Sequence record: OR167180
Direction: 5' to 3' (one strand)
DNA from: Escherichia phage MIZ4
Length of the DNA: 64,000 bases
This document shows positions 2,581 to 20,263 of the stretch, piece after piece. The notes beneath the pieces are model-generated. The model had not been told where the DNA came from, ran no database searches, and saw only the letters and a program-made list of their open reading frames with translations. The translations under genes and the position numbers were made by a program. Numbering within the stretch: the stretch's first letter is position 1; each line of letters opens with the position of its first letter.

Positions 2581-2622
2581 TCAATTTTTATAGAGTATAA
2601 CGGGGATTTCTCCCCGCGTCAA

Positions 2623-3657
2623 CTAACTTTTTGCGCTATTTACTTCGGCTAAAAGTTCATCAGAAATACGCTTGACCGCCGCAAGTTCTTCCGGTTCTAG
2701 GTTTTGTTCTTCCAGATATTCATAGACCATCTGAATAGTGCTTTTAACTTCAATAACACCTGTTTCCTGTGATGCGCTACTCTCCAGCTTATGGACCACT
2801 TTTAGCTTGTGTACAACGGCCTCTAACGCGCTTTCTAACTTAGTTAACCCATTATCAGCGACCGTTGCGATAAGACGCACACTAAGCCCCTTAAAGCGTT
2901 CTACATCGATTTTATCATCTGACGGGTAAGTGATACGCACATGATAAGTTTTGTCATTCTGGATAAACTCTTTTTTGTGTGTATCGGTATCGAATACCCA
3001 AAACCCACGCGGATCGTTTTCGTCACCCGCCGTTAGTGTGTATGGTGTACCTATATACGTTACGTTACCGCCATCACTGATAGTATGAAAGTGACCCGAA
3101 AACACTTCACGGTATTTCTTTAGGAAGTCCGCGCTATAACCTTCGGATTTTAGCCCTTTATAGAAATAGTAACCGGACAATTCCCAATGGCCTACACAAT
3201 ATTCGCTGAATGAGTTTTGAATAAACTCTAAAATCTCTGATTTATTGTCATCACAAAACCACGGGAACAGATCAAATGATACACCATCAAAGGTGACTGT
3301 TTCCGGCTTATCAATAACCTTAATGCAATCATACTGGCTTAACACTTCACGCGGTGCGTTAGGCTGGATCTTGTTTCGTTTAAACATATCATGATTCCCA
3401 ACCGTGATATAACAAGTAATACCAGCCTCTTCCAGTAGCGGGATGATTTTCGTTCTATTAAAACGCATAGTTGCATGTGTGATTGCTTTTCGGCAATCAA
3501 ACCAGTCCCCTGTCTGAATCCATGCCTTAATATTATGTTTTTTTGAATAATCGACTGCCTTTTTAATAGTATCAAGAATATACTCATGTATCCACGGATC
3601 ATCGTTGCCGATACCAGTATGCAGATCACCCAAAAGCAAAATTTTCATATTATACAT
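2623..3657 (-). CDS. 47: Recombination endonuclease subunit gp47 (Mre11/SbcD-like phosphoesterase)
   Basis: MKILLLGDLHTG...IQTGDWFD...GNHD calcineurin-like phosphoesterase motifs; N-terminus aligns with recalled T4 gp47; true start may be the internal Met at ~3648. Confidence 0.9.
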   Translation of the reverse strand: MYNMKILLLGDLHTGIGNDDPWIHEYILDTIKKAVDYSKKHNIKAWIQTGDWFDCRKAITHATMRFNRTKIIPLLEEAGITCYITVGNHDMFKRNKIQPNAPREVLSQYDCIKVIDKPETVTFDGVSFDLFPWFCDDNKSEILEFIQNSFSEYCVGHWELSGYYFYKGLKSEGYSADFLKKYREVFSGHFHTISDGGNVTYIGTPYTLTAGDENDPRGFWVFDTDTHKKEFIQNDKTYHVRITYPSDDKIDVERFKGLSVRLIATVADNGLTKLESALEAVVHKLKVVHKLESSASQETGVIEVKSTIQMVYEYLEEQNLEPEELAAVKRISDELLAEVNSAKS

Positions 3658-3663
3658 AATCTC

Positions 3664-4218
3664 CTAAAAATTTTTAACACCATATTCACCAAAATAAAGA
3701 TCAACCGCTTTGTCATAAGCTCTGGCCGCATCTTCTTCGTTGACATAATACCCAAGAGATATTAGTTTATCATTATTTCGTATTCTTGCAACCCATTTCT
3801 TCGTATGTTTATGCCAGCTAACCCCTTTATACTTGCTTGCTTTATTCTTGTACTTTCCAACGTTACAAGCATTTTTCTTTGCGTCGGACTCTCTAAGATT
3901 GCGTGGTGCGTTGTTTAAAGGATTTCGGTCTATATGATCTATAATTTCTGGTTGTGTTCCATGCTCAAGAAACCATACAATACGATGTACATATGGCTTT
4001 AAAACCCTCCCATTATCCATAACAATTGCAATTTGGAGATGATCCTGACTTTTAAAAGTTTTTACTTTATCTCCTGCCTTATAAAACTTTCCTTCGTAAT
4101 TCTTTCCTCCGGCTCGGCTATTCTTTAAATGATAAAGAATACCATCGTCGTCATGTCTATATCTTTCTCGTATAATTCGTTGCGTTTCTTCATCCCACAA
4201 TTTGGAACGTCTACTCAT
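3664..4218 (-). CDS. HNH homing endonuclease with C-terminal AP2-type DNA-binding domain
   Basis: HNH motif IDHIDRNPLNN followed by AP2-like YKGVSWHKHTKKWVARIRNNDKLISLGYYVNEEDAARAYD; SD GAGGAAG upstream; sits where T4 carries alpha-gt. Confidence 0.75.
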   Translation of the reverse strand: MSRRSKLWDEETQRIIRERYRHDDDGILYHLKNSRAGGKNYEGKFYKAGDKVKTFKSQDHLQIAIVMDNGRVLKPYVHRIVWFLEHGTQPEIIDHIDRNPLNNAPRNLRESDAKKNACNVGKYKNKASKYKGVSWHKHTKKWVARIRNNDKLISLGYYVNEEDAARAYDKAVDLYFGEYGVKNF

Positions 4219-4308
4219 AGTCTCTTCCTCTCTTCGTTTTCGATGCTCTCACTATATCACAGAAAAATAAAAAGGGAAACCCCTTTCAGAGTCTCCCTTA
4301 TAAAGCCA

Positions 4309-4596
4309 TTACAGCATACTTAATACCGTTTGCCGTGTACTAATCCACATAGCAGAAAGCAGTTCTGGTGTGTGTGGCTGTTTGTAGATATCACGTAATT
4401 TTCCGATAGCGTAGATATACGCATCACGATTATCATCGATGATAGCTTGCTCAGCCCACCGCTTAAGTCGTGCAATCTCTCGCGAGTTCTTACGCAAGAT
4501 CTTTTCCGCTTTCTTAGCGGCTTTAGCCTCTAGTTCTGCTTGTACTTTGTCTACTTCATTCACTGCAATCTTGTCATGCTGTTCATTGCAAGTCAT
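4309..4596 (-). CDS. Hypothetical protein (95 aa), charged/coiled-coil
   Basis: ORF track; minus-strand array; no motif. Confidence 0.5.
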   Translation of the reverse strand: MTCNEQHDKIAVNEVDKVQAELEAKAAKKAEKILRKNSREIARLKRWAEQAIIDDNRDAYIYAIGKLRDIYKQPHTPELLSAMWISTRQTVLSML

Positions 4597-4597
4597 A

Positions 4598-4831
4598 TTA
4601 TTTTACCTCTGGGATATAATCAATTATTAAAGAAAATTCATCTTCTGATACATTATAGCTATGTGAGATTGTACCCGTCAAGACCTCAAGATCCGGTGAT
4701 TTGATATTGCACGGATCGATAATCACCGGAACGCCGCAATCTCTCAAAAATAATTTGGCGAAATACGGCACAAGGTCAGTTTCAAACTCTGCTTCTTCCA
4801 GCAAACGGGAAATGTTAATTTTCAATCTCAT
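4598..4831 (-). CDS. Hypothetical protein (77 aa)
   Basis: ORF track; abuts neighbours on same strand. Confidence 0.45.
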
Positions 4832-5348
4832 AAAATTGGTCCAGGCTAGGCAATTCCTCGGTCAATACATCTTCAACCTTTGGCGCTTTCGGTTTATTGA
4901 CCGATTCCTCGTAGTTGTTGATTTTATCGTAAATGTCCTGTATGAATGCCTCATCAGCAATCTGGCACATATCAGCGTCGCGTTCGTCATATACATGATG
5001 CACAAAATATTTGTATTTTGCGGCTGTCGCTGTTCTTTCTTTTTTAATGCGCTGCACAAAAGCATTAAAGCACGCTTGCGTGATGTAAGCATGAGGATTT
5101 TTATACTTTGTCTCGTCAAAATTAATCAAACCCTTGACCGCCGCTTCGATTCCATCGTCGATCATTTCTTCGCGCCATGTTTGACTATAGCCAGAAAAGT
5201 TAAAACGCCGTGATAGATTTTTAGAGATTTGCATAATTGCCAGGCCGATTTGGTCACTCATTGGCACTTGCCGACCTTCTGCTGCAATTCGTTGTTTCCA
5301 ACGGCAAATTTCTTCGTAAAGCTCTTTATTGTTTACATAATCAGACAC
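4815..5348 (-). CDS. 55: Late-transcription sigma factor gp55
   Basis: Central region [57 protein letters not shown] is nearly identical to recalled T4 gp55. Confidence 0.93.
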
Positions 5349-5388
5349 TTCGCACCCTCGCTATTATTTAGGAAATAACCCTTTCGGG

Positions 5389-6858
5389 CTATTCCCCATT
5401 ACCATTATACTTTCTTTGCTTAGTTATCCACACTCTAACCATCTCTACTGATTCACCGTCAGAGGGATCAAGAGTTTTTCCTTTTTTCTTCATGCGGTAC
5501 TTAAATCCGTTAAATCTTGCATTCTCTTGCTCGTTAAAGTCGAACATCTTTTTAAATGATTTTCTCCCTTTACGCTCACCGCATTCTAGCGGAATCATTC
5601 GGTCTGTTATTACATTGGCATTAGGTAGAAACGTTTTTAGATAATCTACCAACGCCCAATCAGGAACATATAGATTAACATTCTCCTTGCTCTCGTTGTC
5701 TCTCAGGTTACAACGCAAACATAATTGAAATGCTGGTTCCAGATAATCAGACACATGACGCGCTTTCAAAAACTCATTTGTCGGGAGATCACAACTATTA
5801 GCAAGACCTTTTAAAATATCAATCTCCCATCGTTGAGGGTTAAAGCTGAACATCACAGCAACATTTTTATGATGAATGTAAGAGTTAAGACCATAAGATC
5901 CGTAAGGTATCCGCTCACCAATACCATTTGTACACGCTTCACGGTCCCGATTCACGGTATAAATGAAGTCATCACCACATTCATTTTTAACCATATCAAC
6001 CAGACGTTCAAAGGTATTGTTTGTTTCTGACTGGTGACGCGACCATCGTTCGGAGTCCGTCATAAGGATGATGTTAACTCTATCTGTATTTTTATACTCT
6101 TTGAAATATAGTCTGGATTCTAGCGCACTCGGAACAAAATCGCAATTTGCATAGTATCGTAGATACTTCCCACTATATGTATCAAAGAGATTTGCACATG
6201 CTATCGTAACCTTTTTAAAGTCTCCCCACGTACCGTGTTTGTTATCGTTCAAGAAAACAATTTTCGACCCATTCTTCCGGTGGCCTTCGTTATGTTTTAC
6301 CATAACGTTGATTTTCTTCTCTAATAACGCCTCATAAAGCCCTCTAAGAGAAGAATCGATCATATCAGTACCATCCTTTGCACTTTCTATCTTTTCTTTG
6401 ATAGCGGCCTTCTCAGAGTCTTTTAGAACTAAGTTCTGTAGGCATTCCGATTCGTCGGCGATTGGTTCGCAATGCTTCGTGATAAGTTCAAGATTAGACT
6501 TAAACGGATACTCATTAAATTCAACCAGTTGAGGAACTTCATCAATGTAAAGAGCATAATCACCAAACATTTTTGAACGTTCCATATTAGATAACGCTGT
6601 ATGTGTAATGAATATCACATCAGCACCATCTTTAACTGATTGCATTATCGACGCTTGCACTGTCTTAAGGCTTCTTAGTCTTGTGCTATCAATCAAGACA
6701 GCACGACCGCCCATTCTTTTAAACTTATTGTAAGATTGTTCACTTAAAACACGAGATGGCGAAGCAATAACCGCTTTTTCTTTTGTCTCTAGGACGTGGG
6801 AAAGTATAGCATCAGTTTTCCCCGCCGCTGGCAATGCGATTAATGTTTCAATCTTCAT
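5389..6858 (-). CDS. P-loop NTPase of unknown function (489 aa)
   Basis: N-terminal Walker A-like ALPAAGKT and Walker B-like ALYIDEV; remainder Cys-containing with no recognised fold; not resembling T4 alpha-gt. Confidence 0.6.
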   Translation of the reverse strand: MKIETLIALPAAGKTDAILSHVLETKEKAVIASPSRVLSEQSYNKFKRMGGRAVLIDSTRLRSLKTVQASIMQSVKDGADVIFITHTALSNMERSKMFGDYALYIDEVPQLVEFNEYPFKSNLELITKHCEPIADESECLQNLVLKDSEKAAIKEKIESAKDGTDMIDSSLRGLYEALLEKKINVMVKHNEGHRKNGSKIVFLNDNKHGTWGDFKKVTIACANLFDTYSGKYLRYYANCDFVPSALESRLYFKEYKNTDRVNIILMTDSERWSRHQSETNNTFERLVDMVKNECGDDFIYTVNRDREACTNGIGERIPYGSYGLNSYIHHKNVAVMFSFNPQRWEIDILKGLANSCDLPTNEFLKARHVSDYLEPAFQLCLRCNLRDNESKENVNLYVPDWALVDYLKTFLPNANVITDRMIPLECGERKGRKSFKKMFDFNEQENARFNGFKYRMKKKGKTLDPSDGESVEMVRVWITKQRKYNGNGE

Positions 6859-7163
6859 TAGAAACCCTTACGTCGTGCTTTCTGGCATTTCTTGATCATT
6901 TTATCAGAAATTTCGCGCTTAGGTGCAATCTCTTTCACACCGAAAGCACTAATGCCAAATTCAGAGAGAATATATTCAACTAACAATTCACGCACACGCG
7001 CTTTACCGATATTCACGCCGTTATTTTTCAGATATGTCTGGCCTTCGACTTGCATCAGATCTAAATCAGCGTCGGTAATATTGATTTCTTCCATGCGCCC
7101 AAATCGAGAATAAACCATGTGTGCGATTGCATTGTGTACTAACATAATATATTCCTCACTCAA
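6858..7163 (-). CDS. Hypothetical protein (101 aa)
   Basis: ORF track; stop/start overlap with downstream P-loop gene. Confidence 0.5.
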   Translation of the reverse strand: MSEEYIMLVHNAIAHMVYSRFGRMEEINITDADLDLMQVEGQTYLKNNGVNIGKARVRELLVEYILSEFGISAFGVKEIAPKREISDKMIKKCQKARRKGF

Positions 7164-7164
7164 G

Positions 7165-7326
7165 AATTACTTAATGATACTTACTTTACCAGATCCATGA
7201 CAATGAGCGCAACACCCATCACCACGCAATCCTGTTCCGTTACAGTGTTTACACTTCTTCAACGGTAAAGCCATTATAGCAAATAAAGCAATAATGAACA
7301 CCGAAACTAAATTCTCAATAATCATA
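7165..7326 (-). CDS. Putative small membrane-anchored zinc-finger protein (~54 aa), not in ORF track
   Basis: Manual translation MIIENLVSVFIIALFAIMALPLKKCKHCNGTGLRGDGCCAHCHGSGKVSIIK: hydrophobic N-terminus then two CxxCxGxG repeats like a DnaJ-type zinc finger; start overlaps stop of upstream gene; coordinates approximate. Confidence 0.3.
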
Positions 7327-7584
7327 AATCTCCCTCAGTTCTTTATAGCCTCCAATGTGCTCGTTGTCAATGAATATCTGGGGGTATACAAATCGGAGGC
7401 TCTTTGAGTTCAGCCTCCCCGCCAGTTCTTCAATCATATCACGGTCGGGAATAATGTCAACCCCAACCTGCTTGAATACTGGTTTAAGTGTATACGGAAT
7501 ACCCAGATCATCCAGTAGCTTCATTGCACTAATACAACCATAACAATGATAAGCCTCTTTCGGTATGCCGTATATCTCGATCAT
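7315..7584 (-). CDS. nrdH: Glutaredoxin-like protein (NrdH-like redoxin)
   Basis: CxxC motif HCYGC near N-terminus, YPQIF and IGGYKEL motifs typical of glutaredoxin fold; positioned near nrdG/nrdD as in T4. Confidence 0.6.
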   Translation of the reverse strand: MIEIYGIPKEAYHCYGCISAMKLLDDLGIPYTLKPVFKQVGVDIIPDRDMIEELAGRLNSKSLRFVYPQIFIDNEHIGGYKELREIYDY

Positions 7585-8102
7585 TTCTCAGCCTTTAATC
7601 TTTCTAGTTCTTCTTCCAGTTCCTTGATCCGTTGGTCACGTTCAAAGTCACGCTGCAACTTAGTGGCGAATACTCGTTTAAACTGATTGTAATCATCGAT
7701 TTTAAACACTTCTTCTTCGCCATAGCGACGCACAGAAACTTCGTAGTTGTTGAAAAATTGTTCCAACATTGCATCAGTAGTCAGTTCTGACGACACCACT
7801 TTAAAATAACGTTCTTCGGATTGCAAAAACCAGTTGTGCGCGTATTCCCGTACATCATCAACATCTCGACAGGTGTATGTTTTTCCATCAATTTCAATCG
7901 CAGAAACATATTCGATATCTGATGCAATTTTTTCAAAAGCGATAACTTTAAATGTACGGTCACCGATAAAGTCTGCTATTGCATCATTTGCAACACTGGT
8001 TGCAAAGGCTTTCCGCGCTCGCTCGTTTTTCCACTGATAGGTCATACCAACAACAAACATATTACCATCAACAAACATATTACCATCCTCGCTCTTTACC
8101 AA
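7581..8102 (-). CDS. Hypothetical protein, member of paralogous family A/B with C-terminal coiled coil
   Basis: Shares VGMTY.WK, IEIDGKTYT and ERYFKVV blocks with the ORFs at 8080-9922 and 14285-16374; C-terminal RIKELEEELERLKAEK coiled coil. Confidence 0.55.
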   Translation of the reverse strand: MVKSEDGNMFVDGNMFVVGMTYQWKNERARKAFATSVANDAIADFIGDRTFKVIAFEKIASDIEYVSAIEIDGKTYTCRDVDDVREYAHNWFLQSEERYFKVVSSELTTDAMLEQFFNNYEVSVRRYGEEEVFKIDDYNQFKRVFATKLQRDFERDQRIKELEEELERLKAEK

Positions 8103-8904
8103 TCAAAAATTCAACTTCACGACGTTTAATGTCTTCTTGAAGGTCTTTAATCTTCTGGCGATCTTGCATTATTTCGTCCATCTTGTCAAGTGCTGCGATG
8201 AAATCATCGAAACGTTCAAAGGTTTTACCTTCATTTGCTTCGCCAAATTTAACCATTGTCAGGCCGTAACGACTACTAAACAGACGTTTCAACTGTCCAA
8301 CGATTTTAGAATCAGTGGTTATAACTTCCAATTCTTCTACTTCACGAAAGAATTTTCTATCAGAATCAATAAACCAGCTAGTTCCTTTATGGTTGCTATC
8401 TTCGGTTGCACTCATTAGAGTATGGTCTTTACCATCAATTTCAATTACATCAATTTGCCCACATGGACGAACATTTTTAACAGTAAAAGGTCTATAATTT
8501 ATTGCTCGTGCAATAACATAATTAAGATTAGATACGTTTTCAGCATAATGGCAGAAGTCGGTCATAGCATTCACGTCTTTCCAAGTATAAGTTTTACCAA
8601 CTTCCCATTTCTGGGGAACTTCTTCAACTTCACGAAAGAATTTTCTATCGAATGGACTAAAGAAATATGTTGCAGTCCAAATGTCTTTTCCTGTAGCAGT
8701 TTTCGCCGTATGATAAACACCGTCTAGCTCTATTGCATTAATCCAACCGTTGCCATCGATCTCGATGATGGTAAATGGCTTGTCACCAATAGCTGCACTA
8801 ATATCGCTGTTAAGTGGAGAAAGAACACCTTCTCCGTTAGTAATAAACTCAGTTTTAGCGTTTACATCTTTCCAAGTGTAAGTTTTACCAATTTCCCATT
8901 TCAT
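8080..8904 (-). CDS. Hypothetical protein with two tandem copies of the family A domain
   Basis: Internal duplication: MKWEIGKTYTWKDVNA...FDRKFFREVEE and KWEVGKTYTWKDVNA...DRKFFREVEE; C-terminal coiled coil. Confidence 0.6.
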   Translation of the reverse strand: MKWEIGKTYTWKDVNAKTEFITNGEGVLSPLNSDISAAIGDKPFTIIEIDGNGWINAIELDGVYHTAKTATGKDIWTATYFFSPFDRKFFREVEEVPQKWEVGKTYTWKDVNAMTDFCHYAENVSNLNYVIARAINYRPFTVKNVRPCGQIDVIEIDGKDHTLMSATEDSNHKGTSWFIDSDRKFFREVEELEVITTDSKIVGQLKRLFSSRYGLTMVKFGEANEGKTFERFDDFIAALDKMDEIMQDRQKIKDLQEDIKRREVEFLIGKERGW

Positions 8905-8916
8905 AATATATTCCCC

Positions 8917-9396
8917 TTAACCGATTTTATCAAGTTCGTTTAATGCTTTCTCAGCTTCCTGTATAGCTTGCACCCTTTCCGGCATTTTGTCAAGAAAATC
9001 TTTCAACTCTTCAAAACTGGAGATATGACGCAAGGCATTAGCACCGATAGCCGCATGTGATTTGCATTCAAAGCGAATTTTATAATTATCCATAGCCAAT
9101 TTGAGAAGATCAATTAATTTAGATTCTTCTGGAATAATAATTTCTTCAAATCTGCTACGGTCATGATCCAGAAACCAACAAGATAGACCTACATCGGTTG
9201 AACTCATATAAGTTCCATCATGAAGATAAACAGACCGCACGTATCCTTTTTTCGCATCAACCGACGCAACTTTAAACGGTAATCGCAGATATTTCAAATA
9301 ATCAACATCATACCATTTAAAAAATTGATTTGCATCTTTTACATCTTTCCACGCATAGGTCTTACCAGCTTCCCATTTCATAATATCATCTCTCAT
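8917..9396 (-). CDS. Hypothetical protein, family A paralog
   Basis: N-terminus MKWEAGKTYAWKDV; C-terminal coiled coil LKDFLDKMPERVQAIQEAEKALNELDKIG. Confidence 0.6.
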   Translation of the reverse strand: MRDDIMKWEAGKTYAWKDVKDANQFFKWYDVDYLKYLRLPFKVASVDAKKGYVRSVYLHDGTYMSSTDVGLSCWFLDHDRSRFEEIIIPEESKLIDLLKLAMDNYKIRFECKSHAAIGANALRHISSFEELKDFLDKMPERVQAIQEAEKALNELDKIG

Positions 9397-9922
9397 TTTT
9401 GATACGTGATTCTAATTGGATCATACGGTCGCGCGTTTGTTTGTATTCTCGGATAGCACCGATCCGGCTAGGCATACCATCCAGTACGCTCTTAATACCT
9501 TCTAGGGTAGTAATTTTGGCAATGCTATTATGTAACCCCATCTTATCGATCAACTGAATGTCGTAGGCTTCCATAAGCAGACCCAGGCGTTCTAAAGTTA
9601 GGTCTTCTTCTTTTTCTTCCGAATCTGGAATCTTATGTTCAATAGTAACTTCGGTAAAGAAACGACGCTCACCCGACCAAAACCACACGCCGGAACAGCC
9701 AATAGGGGATTCTTTTAACGTCATAGAGTCGAAATTACTACCAATAATAGTAATTTCTCTAACATCACCATCATCGTCAAGGTCTTCTACCCTAAACGGG
9801 CGACCAGCCAACAAGTCAACAATACATCTGTTAATAGACGACGAAAATTTAGTCAGTTCGGCTTTCGACGCTTCGCATTCAATCTTGTAAGTTTTACCAA
9901 CTTCCCATTCCATAATAATCAC
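9386..9922 (-). CDS. Hypothetical protein, family A paralog
   Basis: N-terminus MEWEVGKTY; RRFFTEV block; C-terminal coiled coil. Confidence 0.6.
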   Translation of the reverse strand: MIIMEWEVGKTYKIECEASKAELTKFSSSINRCIVDLLAGRPFRVEDLDDDGDVREITIIGSNFDSMTLKESPIGCSGVWFWSGERRFFTEVTIEHKIPDSEEKEEDLTLERLGLLMEAYDIQLIDKMGLHNSIAKITTLEGIKSVLDGMPSRIGAIREYKQTRDRMIQLESRIKNER

Positions 9923-16935: not shown

Positions 16936-17229
16936 TTAACCATTAATCTTGTTTTTGACTACAAAGGATCTGAACTCATCAAAACCACCTATATAATCAC
17001 CATTATAGAAAATCTGCGGCATGGTGGCAATAACTTCTACCCCTGCGCGATCCTGAATGTCGGCAATGATAGAATCAATCTTTACCGGACGACCGTTTTC
17101 GTCCACACCATCATTAACCGGAATGTAGATGTAAGGGATCTTACGCGATTCACAAAGGCGCTTTGCATTCTGGCAATACTTACAGTTGTAACCTTCAAAA
17201 CCAAAAATTTCTACCATGTTATACCTCAA
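16936..17229 (-). CDS. nrdC: Thioredoxin/glutaredoxin NrdC
   Basis: CKYCQNAKRL (T4 CVYCDNAKRL) and TMPQIF...IGGFDEFR match recalled T4 NrdC. Confidence 0.8.
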   Translation of the reverse strand: MRYNMVEIFGFEGYNCKYCQNAKRLCESRKIPYIYIPVNDGVDENGRPVKIDSIIADIQDRAGVEVIATMPQIFYNGDYIGGFDEFRSFVVKNKING

Positions 17230-18038
17230 TCTACGTTAGTTACATAAACTTCTTGCGTATCAGAAGACTTACCACCTGAACGATCTAGGCAATAGGTCTT
17301 ATTCAACAAGACGCAGTTTAAATCATTCCGCTTGATAAAGTCAAGAAGATGATCATTTACCTTTCCCTTATGATGTGTGACATTACTGATACCAAACTGA
17401 AAACCACGCGCCATAATAGATTCTACCCACTGATAGAATTTAATCTCTTCTTCTTCACTCCAGAACTTATTATATTCTGCCGATGTGATCCAATATGGCG
17501 GGTCCAAATAAACGAAATCACCTGGCAAGATCTCGATCTCGTCATAGCGACCAGACGTAAAACTGATTCGACCGTCTTTGTTTTCTTCCTTAAAATTCAG
17601 GACACGCTCTACCGCGTTTTCGTTAAAAGTCCGGCGACCAAAATTAGCATTAAATTCTCCCTTCCTGTTATGGCGGTTAATGTTGCTAAAACTGTGCTGA
17701 ATCAGAACAAACAGAGATAGCGGATCTGGATTCTCATTATACTTCTTACGGAATGCCATGTAAGCGTCTTTATCTTCGCGAGACAAACCATTTTCGGCAA
17801 TAATACGCTTGATCGTAGAAACCGGATCAGGACACTCGTCAATCGCTTTGTACGCGTCAATTAAGCGGTGATCATAGTCATTAGCCAGCACATCCCCTTC
17901 TACGTACAGAGACACGCTCAAGCCACCACAAAAGGCATCGACAAAGCGGTTATAGTGCTTAGGGAAATACTTACTAACACCAGGCAATAACTTTTCCTTA
18001 TTGCCCGTATAGGGAATTAAACCTAATGCTTTCTTCAT
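17226..18038 (-). CDS. dam: DNA N6-adenine methyltransferase Dam
   Basis: YTGNKEKLLP, FVDAFCGGLSVSL (AdoMet motif), GDFVYLDPPYWITSAEYNKFWSEEEE (DPPY) match recalled T4 Dam. Confidence 0.9.
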   Translation of the reverse strand: MKKALGLIPYTGNKEKLLPGVSKYFPKHYNRFVDAFCGGLSVSLYVEGDVLANDYDHRLIDAYKAIDECPDPVSTIKRIIAENGLSREDKDAYMAFRKKYNENPDPLSLFVLIQHSFSNINRHNRKGEFNANFGRRTFNENAVERVLNFKEENKDGRISFTSGRYDEIEILPGDFVYLDPPYWITSAEYNKFWSEEEEIKFYQWVESIMARGFQFGISNVTHHKGKVNDHLLDFIKRNDLNCVLLNKTYCLDRSGGKSSDTQEVYVTNVD

Positions 18039-18469
18039 TATCCCTTCCTCAAATAAGTTCGCTCAATCTCTACCAGTTCGAAAAATTCATCCCAATCACA
18101 CGGAAAGTTGCAGTTTCCAAAATGGTCTTCGTTATAGAGTTCTTTACCGGATGGCAGCTTAATATCTGTTACAGTATACCAACCGCAACAATCGCAATCA
18201 CCCTCAGCAACAGAAACCTTCGTAGGAATTTGCATCATTGCCAGATAGGTCGGTACGTCAGACTGCTCAAAGATCATGTAACCTTCATGGTCAAACGAGA
18301 CAAAATTGTCATCACCCAAAAAAGGAATGTAATGGTCATAATCGGTTACAGGTTGACCGTGCAATTCCCATTCTACAATTTTAACATTACCACTAAACTT
18401 TATACCCATCATATCAACCATAAAATGGGTATCATCAATGTAAATCTTACTAGGAGTTGGATAAACCAT
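18038..18469 (-). CDS. Hypothetical protein (143 aa)
   Basis: ORF track; compact minus-strand array. Confidence 0.5.
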   Translation of the reverse strand: MVYPTPSKIYIDDTHFMVDMMGIKFSGNVKIVEWELHGQPVTDYDHYIPFLGDDNFVSFDHEGYMIFEQSDVPTYLAMMQIPTKVSVAEGDCDCCGWYTVTDIKLPSGKELYNEDHFGNCNFPCDWDEFFELVEIERTYLRKG

Positions 18470-18987: not shown

Positions 18988-19273
18988 GATTTACCCCTAA
19001 TTCATCAAGATTATGTCGCAGCATTTCAGAGTATTTTTCTACTTCCTTGATCTTAGTGTGGATCTCCACGATCTCATCTTCACTATCAGATAGTTTAATG
19101 GCAATCGCGAGCGTGCTTTTACCAGCCTTGATCGCTTCTTTCAGTTCAACCAACATGTCCGCGTGTTTCAATAGCAATTCTTCACGTCGAACATAAGCGA
19201 CGGTCAAAGCCTCATCAGCGATTTCTAAAGCATTTTCAGCGACACCAACAACCATTTTACGAGTAGACAGCAT
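18980..19273 (-). CDS. Hypothetical coiled-coil protein (97 aa)
   Basis: ORF track. Confidence 0.5.
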   Translation of the reverse strand: MLSTRKMVVGVAENALEIADEALTVAYVRREELLLKHADMLVELKEAIKAGKSTLAIAIKLSDSEDEIVEIHTKIKEVEKYSEMLRHNLDELGVNHG

Positions 19274-19287
19274 AAATTCACCTCACA

Positions 19288-19596
19288 TTATTTCACATTA
19301 ACGCCGTTATCAATCCAGCCGACGCTATTTGGTTTAACAGTTTTACCATAGGATGCATACTTAATCAAGCATGGTTTAACATAATTATCAAATCTTCCTA
19401 AACGTACTCCCAAATCAGGAATATCCATGTATGCGGCTTTATATCCCCATGTGCCATATTCAGAATCAATCTCAACCGGACGGCCTTTAAAAGCATAAAC
19501 TACACCGTGACGGTCAACGATAACATAACAATAACCAGCCGGAAGATACACAGTTTCGCCGTAAACTTTAACTGGAGTAGCAGAAGAGATAAACAT
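19288..19596 (-). CDS. Hypothetical protein (~103 aa)
   Basis: Track ORF trimmed to MFISSATPV, the ATG after the GAGGATTATATT leader. Confidence 0.5.
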   Translation of the reverse strand: MFISSATPVKVYGETVYLPAGYCYVIVDRHGVVYAFKGRPVEIDSEYGTWGYKAAYMDIPDLGVRLGRFDNYVKPCLIKYASYGKTVKPNSVGWIDNGVNVK

Positions 19597-19630
19597 AATA
19601 TAATCCTCACATCGTTCATTTGATGCGGTC

Positions 19631-19659
19631 ATTATATGATAACCGCATTTTCATGTCAA
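19631..19659 (-). promoter_or_regulatory. Sigma70-type early promoter cassette
   Basis: Minus-strand TTGACA (19654-19659), 17-nt spacer, TATAAT (19631-19636); flanked by inverted repeat ATGCGGT..ACCGCAT. Confidence 0.5.
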
Positions 19660-19665
19660 CAGTTT

Positions 19666-20040
19666 TTAAAAATCTTCTTCCGGTTTATATCGACCGTCAT
19701 CGACTGGTTTTGGACTGAATCCTTTATGTGTGCGCGGCTTCGCTTCCGGTTTACCAGCAATCATCAAACCAAAACATTTCAGCCCTTTATAACACATAAC
19801 AATATTAACCACGGTCCAAGTTATAGGCCATATAATAGAACAAATGGCATATGCTCCAATATCGACCTCTTTGGTGTCCTTGTCGAATCTGGCGTACAAG
19901 CAAATTATAAGATAGGTGATCATTGCACCAGTAGGCCAAATATAAAGCACATTAACAATATCTTGTGTTGTCACGTTATCCTCCTTACATGTCTTGCAGT
20001 GCATAAAAGCATTTTTCTTCGTAGTCATAGAAAATGTCAA
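19666..20040 (-). CDS. Hypothetical membrane protein (124 aa)
   Basis: ORF track; two or three hydrophobic segments. Confidence 0.5.
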   Translation of the reverse strand: MTFSMTTKKNAFMHCKTCKEDNVTTQDIVNVLYIWPTGAMITYLIICLYARFDKDTKEVDIGAYAICSIIWPITWTVVNIVMCYKGLKCFGLMIAGKPEAKPRTHKGFSPKPVDDGRYKPEEDF

Positions 20041-20263
20041 AGTATGCTTTTTCTACATACTCACCATTGATCCAAGCGGCAGTAACAATCAGAGTGGTCC
20101 AGTTAGATCCGCTCTCAACGGTAAAGGTTTTAATACCCAGCTTAACAGCCAAGTCACGAGCAAACTGGTCGCAACCACGGCAGGAAGTGATATTGGAAGT
20201 TTTGATTTTAAAGCCACCGCGAGTTTTAGAAATTTCTACTTTAGCGAAAGACAGGTTGCTCAT
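19985..20263 (-). CDS. Hypothetical protein (92 aa)
   Basis: ORF track; start follows conserved leader after promoter at 20307-20335. Confidence 0.5.
   Translation of the reverse strand: MSNLSFAKVEISKTRGGFKIKTSNITSCRGCDQFARDLAVKLGIKTFTVESGSNWTTLIVTAAWINGEYVEKAYFDIFYDYEEKCFYALQDM

What the first reader, a model, noticed from the sequence alone, without database searches (positions are those of the whole stretch)
5389..6858. Large P-loop protein of unknown function between gp55 and the nrd cluster
The 489-aa protein has an N-terminal Walker A-like ALPAAGKT, a following VIASPSRVL segment and Walker B-like ALYIDEV, loosely reminiscent of the first motifs of Dda-type SF1 helicases. I could not find the later helicase motifs, and the C-terminal ~350 aa (several Cys pairs, basic tail) has no fold I recognise. 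It is the largest uncharacterised ORF in the early region and sits where T4 has small 55.x ORFs.
Basis: seen in the sequence. Interest (0 to 1): 0.55.

Follow-up and report, generated by a model that had tools for sequence, protein, structure and literature searches.

The report
Uncharacterised XPD/DinG-like phage helicase
The 489-residue protein is a complete, strongly conserved DNA-helicase-type motor whose predicted fold is closest to the XPD/DinG repair helicases; it belongs to a phage and mobile-element family that nobody has tested experimentally, so it is a solid but moderately novel gene.

Summary
The ORF is real: window 5389-6858, minus strand, 489 aa, with a good ribosome-binding site, typical codon usage and dN/dS 0.03. 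The window is an RB49-like Krischvirus.

The "missing" later helicase motifs are all present (III, IV, V, VI), and the catalytic residues are invariant across 94 distant relatives. It is a superfamily 2 protein, not a Dda-type SF1 helicase.

- There is no iron-sulfur cluster.
- There is no Pfam DEAD_2/Helicase_C_2 signature.
- Profile comparison shows no sequence preference for DinG.

The "unknown C-terminal 350 aa" consists of an insertion at the Arch position, the second RecA domain and a basic helical tail.

The family (PHROG 2467) has over 1,300 representative clusters. One major branch is fused to, or sits next to, an AEP primase-polymerase plus PriCT domain in phages and integrative islands.

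Best reading: an accessory ATP-driven DNA helicase of phage replication or recombination, present in addition to gp41, Dda and gp61. [quoted passage not shown] Function, polarity and substrate remain untested. Interest is moderate.

The parts
5389..6858 (-). Complete gene for the 489-aa SF2 helicase-like protein. It is identical to JSE ACL77994.1 and is a PHROG 2467 member.
   Evidence: ORF list. tblastn gives 100% identity to JSE, KMB43 and FL38. PHROG 2467 matches full length at E=2.9e-175. dN/dS is 0.03.
6865..6869 (-). Shine-Dalgarno AAGGG, 6 nt before the ATG. The ATG (6856-6858) overlaps the TAA stop of 55.2 (6858-6860).
   Evidence: Read directly from the sequence.
6814..6837 (-). Motif I / Walker A, ALPAAGKT (aa 8-15). 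No Q motif can precede it, because only 7 residues lie upstream.
   Evidence: P10, G13, K14 and T15 are invariant in 31 homologues. K14 is invariant in 94 distant relatives.
6733..6771 (-). Motif Ia, VIASPSRVLSEQS (aa 30-42).
   Evidence: S33, L38 and S42 are invariant. It lies within the Pfam DEAD match, residues 11-130.
6532..6555 (-). Motif II / Walker B, ALYIDEVP (aa 102-109).
   Evidence: D106 and E107 are invariant in 94 relatives.
6214..6531 (-). Insertion domain of about 105 aa (aa 110-215) inside RecA1, between motifs II and III. This is the topological position of the Arch domain in XPD/DinG. It holds the invariant C130.
   Evidence: Secondary structure of the model: strands 112-119, 186-189 and 198-205; helices 147-162 and 166-179. 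XPD/DinG hits align 320-363 residues, against at most 256 for generic SF2 cores. Homology to the Arch domain is inferred, not shown.
6190..6213 (-). Motif III, KVTIACAN (aa 216-223).
   Evidence: T218 and N223 are nearly invariant. A222 is conserved in at least 90% of 94 relatives.
5599..6096 (-). Second RecA-like domain (aa 255-420). It carries motif IV (FIYTVNRDR, 5941-5967), motif V (YGLNSY...NP, 5836-5904) and motif VI (EPAFQLCLRCNLR, 5701-5739).
5392..5571 (-). Basic C-terminal tail (aa 430-489; aa 421-489 have pI 9.8). It follows a low-confidence linker and forms three helices.
   Evidence: Model helices 435-438, 443-458 and 468-484; pLDDT is below 50 at 426-431. Composition. E445 and W477 are invariant. 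There is no similarity to the AEP extension of the long relatives.
6858..7145 (-). Upstream, translationally coupled 55.2 homologue (DUF7570). T4 gp55.2 is an inhibitor of E. coli topoisomerase I.
   Evidence: Pfam DUF7570, E=1.4e-28. JSE annotation. PMC4396842.
7174..7203 (-). Sigma-70-like promoter match (TTGTCA-18-TATCAT) about 25 nt upstream of the 55.2 ATG. It is a candidate early promoter for 55.2 plus the helicase.
   Evidence: Consensus scan only. This is not evidence of function.

Best explanation
**What it is.** The gene encodes an active NTP-driven nucleic-acid motor of helicase superfamily 2. It has two RecA-like domains with a full motif set (I, Ia, II, III, IV, V, VI).

**Fold.** The predicted fold is closest to the XPD/Rad3/DinG/CasDinG group.
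- It has an extra domain inserted in RecA1 between motifs II and III, where XPD has its Arch domain.
- It has no iron-sulfur domain.
- It ends in a short basic helical tail.

**Family.** It belongs to a large, sequence-orphan helicase family restricted to phages and integrative mobile elements (PHROG 2467/31024). This is probably the 'pVOG1685/9714' helicases predicted in 2018.

**Most likely mechanism.**
- It binds single-stranded DNA across the two RecA domains and steps along it using NTP hydrolysis. Polarity is probably 5'->3', as in every characterised XPD/DinG relative.
- The insertion domain helps to split the duplex or displace an annealed strand (R-loop, D-loop or fork).
- The basic tail adds DNA or partner binding.

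**Role in the phage.** It is an early-expressed accessory helicase of DNA replication, recombination or restart, working beside the canonical gp41, Dda and gp61.

**Shown:**
- gene reality and purifying selection
- SF2 motifs and their conservation
- the predicted fold and its nearest neighbours
- the recurrent linkage of relatives to an AEP primase-polymerase

**Inferred:**
- DNA rather than RNA as substrate
- polarity
- the role of the insertion and the tail
- the replication/recombination role
For: **SF2 motor with conserved catalytic residues.**
- Pfam DEAD match, E=3.4e-6, above the gathering cut-off.
- K14, D106, E107, G323, N325, Q378, R382 and R386 are invariant in 94 relatives sharing only 16-43% identity.

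**Fold.**
- The AF2 model has pLDDT 87.2 and pTM 0.76.
- Foldseek gives the same ranking, E 7e-10 to 1e-7.

**Link to priming.**
- 26 of the 94 aligned relatives carry a 300-426-aa C-terminal extension.
- The extension has invariant D..D / D acidic residues and a PriCT-like end.
- In alphaproteobacterial genomes the helicase and the AEP-like protein are adjacent genes.
- Those genes sit in islands with an integrase and a resolvase.
- The jumbo phage Atu_ph07 carries the fused form.

**Literature.** PMC5862659 reports AEPs fused to remote SF2 helicase domains whose closest homologues are 'in some T4-like phages'.

**Conservation and context.**
- dN/dS is 0.03.
- The position nrd - 55.x - helicase - 55 - 47 - 46 is conserved across Krischvirus, Biquartavirus, Roskildevirus, Ceceduovirus and Bragavirus. 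In Pseudotevenvirus RB16 gene 34 follows the helicase instead of gene 55.
- The neighbourhood consists of DNA-metabolism genes.
Against: - There is no biochemical or genetic data for any family member.
- At the sequence level there is no specific link to XPD/DinG. No Pfam DEAD_2 or Helicase_C_2 hit appears at E<=1. hhalign against E. coli DinG and YoaA is no better than against RecG, UvrB or RhlE, and covers only the Walker A/Ia region.
- Polarity and the DNA substrate are therefore extrapolated from a predicted fold.
- In a crude NJ tree, the T4-like proteins sit in a major clade of short forms only. The AEP-fused forms fall in the other clade. The primase link is thus indirect for this protein.
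- The phage already has a complete T4-type replisome.
- T4 itself lacks the gene, so it cannot be a core replication function.
Confidence: 0.6

Rival explanations
1. Host-takeover or counter-defence motor. The helicase is an accessory early protein that strips, remodels or out-competes host or defence nucleoprotein complexes on phage DNA. It would not serve replication itself.
For: - It lies in the variable early region, next to the homologue of a host topoisomerase I inhibitor (55.2).
- It is absent from T4-type genera and present in only 243 of the phage records.
- Relatives sit in islands that carry restriction-modification cargo.
Against: - There is no meaningful PADLOC match; the best is E=0.0089 to an unrelated model.
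- dN/dS of 0.03 and a fixed genomic position across six genera look like a housekeeping-type constraint, not an arms-race gene.
- The recurrent partner in relatives is a primase-polymerase, not a nuclease or sensor.
Confidence: 0.17
2. RNA helicase or RNA chaperone of the DEAD-box type, acting on phage or host transcripts.
For: - The only Pfam family above threshold is DEAD/DEAH.
Against: - There is no room for a Q motif, since the P-loop starts at residue 8.
- Motif II is DEVP, not DEAD.
- Motif III is ACAN, not SAT.
- Motif VI is QLCxRxxxR, not HRIGRxGR.
- The full-length best structural matches are DNA helicases of the XPD/DinG group.
- Relatives are coupled to a DNA primase-polymerase.
Confidence: 0.07
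3. R-loop or origin helicase functionally paired with the 55.2 topoisomerase I inhibitor. In this reading 55.2 raises negative supercoiling and R-loop formation, and the helicase opens or resolves these structures to start or clear replication on phage DNA.
For: - The 55.2 stop and the helicase start overlap in the window, and the two genes also overlap in RB16 and CC2 and abut in Pm5461.
- T4 gp55.2 inhibits Topo I and raises the copy number of R-loop-primed plasmids (PMC4396842).
- From established knowledge, E. coli DinG unwinds R-loops and D-loops.
- A 1.1-kb repeat-dense, gene-free stretch follows the homologue in L010. It could be an origin.
Against: - In 44RR and Cronus the 55.2 homologue lies 1.2-2 kb away, with other ORFs between.
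- T4 keeps 55.2 without the helicase.
- No origin is known at this locus.
- The pairing is inference only.
Confidence: 0.12
4. Dda-like SF1B helicase, or a decayed, inactive P-loop relic.
For: - Walker A, Ia-like and Walker B motifs are present at the N-terminus.
- Foldseek lists SF1 Ighmbp2 and Dna2 at E about 1e-6.
Against: - Those SF1 hits have TM of only 0.28-0.31, against 0.44-0.49 for XPD/DinG.
- A genuine dda gene exists elsewhere in the genome.
- The catalytic residues of both RecA domains are invariant, and the gene is under strong purifying selection. That argues against decay.
Confidence: 0.03

Closest known systems
XPD/Rad3/DinG/CasDinG group of SF2 DNA helicases (5'->3')
   Same: - It has a two-RecA SF2 core.
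- An extra domain is inserted in RecA1 between motifs II and III.
- Like CasDinG and S. aureus DinG, it lacks a functional Fe-S cluster.
   Different: - There is no Fe-S domain at all: no cysteines lie between motifs Ia and II.
- There is no Pfam DEAD_2 or Helicase_C_2 signature.
- Profile comparison shows no preferential sequence similarity to E. coli DinG or YoaA.
- The insertion is much smaller, and the protein is shorter (489 aa).
- It has a unique basic C-terminal tail.
- Polarity is untested.
[quoted passage not shown] 2018, PMC5862659); PHROG 2467 and 31024
   Same: [quoted passage not shown]
- This protein is a full-length PHROG 2467 member.
- Its relatives carry AEP + PriCT domains.
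   Different: - Identity with the pVOGs could not be checked, because no pVOG library was available and the supplementary alignment is an image.
- In the paper the helicase is C-terminal to the primase. In the fused relatives whose extension was analysed here it is N-terminal.
- The family has only been predicted, never tested.
Mobile-element primase-helicases (pRN1 ORF904, P4 alpha, vaccinia D5-type AEP-SF3 fusions, T7 gp4)
   Same: The long relatives combine a primase-polymerase with a helicase in one polypeptide, or in adjacent genes, inside phages and integrative islands.
   Different: - The helicase here is SF2 with an XPD-like fold, not SF3 or SF4.
- The domain order is reversed.
- The window protein itself has no primase domain.
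- It sits in the short-form clade.
T4 UvsW and Dda, the known accessory helicases of T4-like phages
   Same: They are accessory phage helicases acting on forks, R-loops and D-loops, and they are plausible functional analogues.
   Different: - Dda is SF1B and is separately encoded.
- This gene is absent from T4.
Herpesvirus UL9 origin-binding SF2 helicase
   Same: The 2018 paper notes that pVOG9714 members resemble UL9. UL9 is also an SF2 helicase with a C-terminal DNA-binding part.
   Different: - There is no Pfam Herpes_ori_bp hit at E<=1.

Membership tests
Helicase superfamily 2 | Conserved motifs I, Ia, II, III, IV, V and VI in order | tested here: met
   PAAGKT, ASPSRxLSxQS, YIDEVP, TIAxAN, FIYTxNxxR, GLN and QLCxRxxxR are all found. 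The catalytic residues are invariant in 94 relatives.
Helicase superfamily 2 | Two tandem RecA-like domains | tested here: met
   [not shown]
Helicase superfamily 2 | Pfam DEAD/ResIII-type N-terminal domain above the curated threshold | tested here: met
   PF00270 scores 27.3 bits against a cut-off of 26, a marginal pass. Relatives also hit ResIII.
XPD/Rad3/DinG family | 4Fe-4S cluster domain with four cysteines between motifs Ia and II | tested here: not met
   There are no cysteines between residues 43 and 101. Only C130 and C380 are invariant.
XPD/Rad3/DinG family | Arch domain inserted in RecA1 between motifs II and III | tested here: inconclusive
   A ~105-aa insertion is present at exactly this position, and XPD/DinG hits align about 80-100 more residues than other SF2 cores. 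Residue-level superposition on the Arch domain could not be inspected.
XPD/Rad3/DinG family | Sequence signature (Pfam DEAD_2 PF06733 / Helicase_C_2 PF13307; profile similarity to DinG/YoaA) | tested here: not met
   There is no such Pfam hit at E<=1. hhalign gives probability 0.6-5.7% for DinG and 13-73% for YoaA, limited to the Walker A region. That is no better than RecG (91%) or UvrB (81%).
XPD/Rad3/DinG family | Closest overall three-dimensional similarity | tested here: met
   [not shown]
XPD/Rad3/DinG family | 5'->3' translocation on single-stranded DNA | not testable with these tools
   This needs a strand-displacement assay with 5'- and 3'-tailed substrates.
DEAD-box RNA helicases | Q motif, DEAD, SAT and HRIGRxGR motifs | tested here: not met
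   The P-loop begins at residue 8, leaving no room for a Q motif. The motifs found are DEVP, ACAN and QLCLRCNLR.
SF1B Dda/RecD2-like helicases | SF1 motif set and 1B/2B accessory domains; closest fold | tested here: not met
   [not shown]
PHROG 2467 | Full-length match to the family profile | tested here: met
   E=2.9e-175; residues 1-489 match profile positions 8-502 of 502.
Helicase-AEP primase-polymerase fusion proteins (long branch of the same family) | C-terminal AEP-like domain with DxD...D acidic residues plus a PriCT-like end | tested here: not met
   The window protein ends 60-70 residues after the core. hhalign of A1 against the extension profile gives probability 0.2%. The domain is present in relatives.
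pVOG1685/9714 helicases (PMC5862659) | Membership of the orthologous group | not testable with these tools
   No pVOG library was available. The supplementary alignment panel is an image. The textual description fits.
Known anti-phage defence helicases (PADLOC) | Match to a defence-system profile | tested here: not met
   The only hit is a chance-level E=0.0089 match to an unrelated SLATT model.

The most novel reading that the evidence does not exclude
The protein may be a domesticated mobile-element replication-initiator helicase. In this reading it belongs to an untested, Fe-S-less XPD-like clade that normally works with an AEP primase-polymerase. Many non-T4 Straboviridae would have kept it, coupled to the topoisomerase I inhibitor 55.2, to open or clear R-loop or origin structures. 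That would give these phages a second, gp41-independent route to start or restart DNA replication.
Probability: 0.15. Interest if true: 0.65.

Novelty: new variant of a known kind. Interest (0 to 1): 0.42.

Why it matters
T4-like phages are the reference system for replication and recombination. Yet many genera carry this additional, strongly conserved helicase that T4 lacks and that no one has studied.

Showing what it unwinds, and in which direction, would do several things:
- It would define a new branch of SF2 helicases: XPD/DinG-like in fold, without an iron-sulfur cluster, and orphan in sequence.
- It would explain why a sister branch is welded to a primase-polymerase in phages and integrative islands. 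That arrangement would be a helicase-primase built from SF2 and AEP parts in reversed order.
- It could reveal an alternative replication-initiation or restart pathway.

In practical terms, the gene should be re-annotated from "hypothetical protein" to "SF2 (XPD/DinG-like) helicase" in about 240 phage genomes.

Tried and rejected
**Sequence searches against solved structures.** The single sequence and the 31-sequence profile gave nothing usable.

**NCBIfam and PADLOC.** Neither gave a family.

**hhalign against E. coli helicases.** I compared the family profiles with DinG, YoaA, RecG, RecQ, UvrB and RhlE to test XPD/DinG membership by sequence. Only the Walker A/Ia region matched, with no preference for DinG or YoaA.

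**Link to unmodified cytosine.** I considered that the gene marks T4-like phages with unmodified cytosine, because RB49 and RB43 lack hmC enzymes (PMC8056088). I rejected this:
- Erwinia phage Cronus carries both the helicase and an alpha-glucosyltransferase.
- The Proteus phages with base-modification genes also have the helicase.

**Obligatory pairing with 55.2.** The pairing is only partial. The genes overlap or abut in four genera and are separated in 44RR and Cronus.

**Tail as a primase remnant.** I tested whether the C-terminal tail is a remnant of the AEP extension. It is not.

**UL9-like origin-binding protein.** There is no Pfam support, and the UL9 core is DEAD-box-like.

**Literature on Krischvirus/BASEL phages and on phage helicases as defence triggers.** Nothing concerns this gene; the retron triggers are UvsW and D10.

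**Searches that failed technically or found little.**
- The search for related loci with the broad alignment failed because no stretch was conserved enough.
- The genome scan with the bacterial homologue found only two alphaproteobacterial MAG loci.
Full report
**The observation**

The window is an RB49-like Krischvirus. Bases 2600-7200 are 100% identical to Escherichia phage MIZ5 and 98.5% identical to RB49. The protein in question is identical to JSE ACL77994.1, which is annotated 'hypothetical protein'.

The ORF runs from 6858 down to 5389 on the minus strand and encodes 489 aa.
- It has an AAGGG Shine-Dalgarno sequence 6 nt before the ATG.
- The ATG overlaps the TAA of the upstream 55.2 homologue (TAATG).
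- Gene 55 follows after a 40-nt spacer.
- No ORF longer than 65 aa lies on the opposite strand.

Composition and codon usage are typical of the window (GC 0.389, GC3 0.356, codon distance 0.71 against a mean of 1.15). Against the 93%-identical gene of Shigella phage SSG23 there are 87.5 synonymous and 12.5 non-synonymous differences, giving dN/dS 0.03. The gene is therefore real, expressed in a normal context and under strong purifying selection.

**What the protein is**

Pfam places residues 11-130 in the DEAD/DEAH helicase family (E=3.4e-6, just above the curated cut-off). PHROGs gives a full-length match to PHROG 2467, function unknown (E=2.9e-175). NCBIfam, PADLOC and sequence searches of the PDB give nothing useful.

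An alignment of 31 homologues with 33-74% identity to it shows that the later helicase motifs are all there and highly conserved (positions):
- III: TIAxAN, 218-223
- IV: FIYTxNxxR, 298-306
- V: GLN, 323-325
- VI: EPAFQLCxRxxxR, 374-386

A full HMMER scan of 1.84 billion representative proteins found 1,335 clusters at E<=0.001. In an alignment of 94 of them (16-43% identity), the invariant columns are exactly the catalytic ones: K14, D106, E107, G323, N325, Q378, R382 and R386. This is the signature of an active SF2 NTPase, not a decayed one.

**Fold**

AlphaFold2 with the 31-sequence alignment gave a confident model (pLDDT 87.2, pTM 0.76). It contains:
- RecA1: residues 1-108, plus 216 to about 250
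- a ~105-residue insertion between motifs II and III (110-215)
- RecA2: about 255-420
- a low-confidence linker, then a basic three-helix tail (430-489; pI 9.8 for residues 421-489)

The insertion sits where XPD and DinG carry the Arch domain. Nothing is inserted where they carry the Fe-S domain, there are no cysteines between motifs Ia and II, and only C130 and C380 are invariant. So the 'Cys pairs' are not a conserved metal site.

At the sequence level there is no specific tie to XPD/DinG. There is no DEAD_2 or Helicase_C_2 hit. In hhalign, E. coli DinG and YoaA score no better than RecG, UvrB or RhlE, and only over the Walker A/Ia region. I therefore describe it as 'XPD/DinG-like in predicted fold' and do not file it as a member of that family.

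It is not Dda-like. SF1 structures score poorly (TM about 0.3), and the genome has its own dda, gene 41, gene 61 and uvsX. It is not a DEAD-box RNA helicase either: there is no room for a Q motif, and the motifs are DEVP, ACAN and QLCLRCNLR.

**Relatives and context**

Among cultured phages the gene occurs in 243 records:
- Krischvirus, at 95% identity or more
- at less than 45% identity in the rows listed (all under 60%): Aeromonas, Cronobacter, Enterobacter, Citrobacter, Klebsiella, Serratia, Proteus, Morganella and Erwinia T4-like phages, and the RB16/RB43 group
- no T4-type phage appears among the organisms and rows listed

Its place in the genome is conserved (nrdD/G/H - 55.x - helicase - gene 55 - 47 - 46) in Biquartavirus, Roskildevirus, Ceceduovirus, Bragavirus and Krischvirus. 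In Pseudotevenvirus it still follows 55.2.

The family has two architectures: about 490 aa, and about 720-850 aa. The 300-426-residue extension of the long forms has a conserved LDxDgG ... NSxS ... RxRv ... GxDxSK ... FYxP pattern with invariant acidic residues.
- One member hits Pfam PriCT_2 (E=1.6e-7) and another hits PriCT_1 weakly.
- In alphaproteobacterial genomes the helicase and the AEP-like protein are adjacent genes. The helicase gene matches the family profile at hhalign probability 99.4%.
- They sit in elements with an integrase and a resolvase. One such element also carries Ku, HU and a methyltransferase; a related island carries a type I restriction-modification system.
- A bacterial short form sits between an integrase and a resolvase.
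- The fused form occurs in a wastewater phage contig and in the jumbo phage Atu_ph07 (762 aa; hhalign probability 99.2% to the extension).

This agrees with a remark in Kazlauskas et al. 2018. [quoted passage not shown] I could not verify that pVOG1685 is this family.

In a crude neighbour-joining tree the T4-like proteins lie in a major clade that contains only short forms. The AEP-fused forms lie in the other clade. The primase link is real for the family but indirect for this protein, whose tail shows no similarity to the extension.

**How it most likely works**

Shown:
- It is a conserved SF2 NTPase with an XPD/DinG-like predicted architecture.
- It is encoded among DNA-metabolism genes.
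- Its family recurrently partners with a primase-polymerase in self-replicating mobile elements.

Inferred:
- It translocates on single-stranded DNA, probably 5'->3' like all characterised XPD/DinG relatives.
- The insertion domain helps to separate strands.
- The basic tail binds DNA or a partner.
- In the phage it is an early accessory helicase for replication, recombination or restart.

I put about 0.85 on 'active SF2 helicase/translocase with an XPD/DinG-like fold' and about 0.5 on the replication/recombination role, for 0.6 overall.

Rivals are a counter-defence or host-takeover motor (0.17), a specific R-loop/origin partnership with 55.2 (0.12), an RNA helicase (0.07), and a Dda-like or decayed protein (0.03). 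T4 gp55.2 inhibits E. coli topoisomerase I and boosts R-loop-primed plasmid replication (PMC4396842). That makes the 55.2 pairing attractive, but adjacency is not universal and T4 keeps 55.2 without the helicase.

**Novelty and verdict**

No experimental work on any member was found. All database records call it hypothetical.

The kind (an SF2 helicase) is known, and the family was noticed in passing in 2018. Several points go beyond the annotation:
- the full motif set
- the XPD/DinG-like, Fe-S-less architecture
- the size of the family
- the helicase-first fusion to an AEP + PriCT module

I rate it a new variant of a known kind, with interest 0.42. It is a worthwhile target for biochemistry and a clear re-annotation, but not a surprise in kind.

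Noticed in passing
window 7581-9922 (minus strand): Four adjacent ORFs between nrdH and nrdG (7581..8102, 8080..8904, 8917..9396, 9386..9922) carry five copies of one ~90-aa domain (M.WE.GKTY.WKDV ... PF.V ... IEIDG ... WF..DR.FF.EV). There is no Pfam family for it. It looks like a tandemly expanded paralogue family of unknown function.
   Followed up: partly
window 3664-4218 (minus strand): An HNH_3 + AP2 homing-endonuclease gene lies immediately upstream of gene 47. It is present in MIZ5, RB49 and JK32. It is absent from JSE, Phi1, ECD7 and other listed Krischvirus genomes, which match this stretch in two pieces at 88% coverage. It appears to be a mobile insertion polymorphism.
   Followed up: partly
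window 6858-7145 (minus strand): The upstream gene is a homologue of T4 55.2 (DUF7570), whose T4 product inhibits E. coli topoisomerase I (PMC4396842). Its stop codon overlaps the helicase start codon (TAATG), which suggests translational coupling.
   Followed up: partly
window 7167-7325 (minus strand): A 52-aa ORF with a hydrophobic N-terminal half and a CxxC...CxxC C-terminal half lies between nrdH and 55.2. It could be a small membrane-anchored zinc-ribbon protein. It has only sub-threshold Pfam matches.
   Followed up: no
L010 9500-10670 (146-kb phage-like metagenome contig); also L013 9641-10630: A gene-free stretch of about 1.1 kb, dense in direct and inverted repeats, lies directly downstream of the helicase homologue P0051. 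Motifs such as ATACCCC..AAAATATC recur, and there is a 39-nt inverted repeat. It could be a replication origin next to the helicase gene. A gene-poor 1 kb also follows the bacterial-island homologue P0056.
   Followed up: partly
L003 8527-11080 and L008 8402-10789 (alphaproteobacterial genomes): The helicase homologue and the AEP-like primase-polymerase are separate adjacent genes, overlapping in L003 and about 200 nt apart in L008. In L003 they lie in an island with an integrase, a resolvase, Ku, HU and a DNA methyltransferase; the L008 pair has none of these nearby. In L008 a T1R_D3-like protein follows. This looks like a possible new replication module of integrative elements.
   Followed up: partly
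L022 17062-20204 (phage JSE, outside the window): The JSE DNA polymerase is annotated as two separate CDS (17062-18468 and 18996-20204) with a ~530-nt gap. This indicates a split gene 43 in this phage group.
   Followed up: no
window 5349-5388 (minus strand): The 40-nt spacer between the helicase stop and the GTG start of gene 55 contains a minimal CCC-GAAA-GGG hairpin and a GAGGGTG ribosome-binding site, but no convincing terminator. Proteus phage Pm5461 has an annotated rho-independent terminator at the equivalent place.
   Followed up: no
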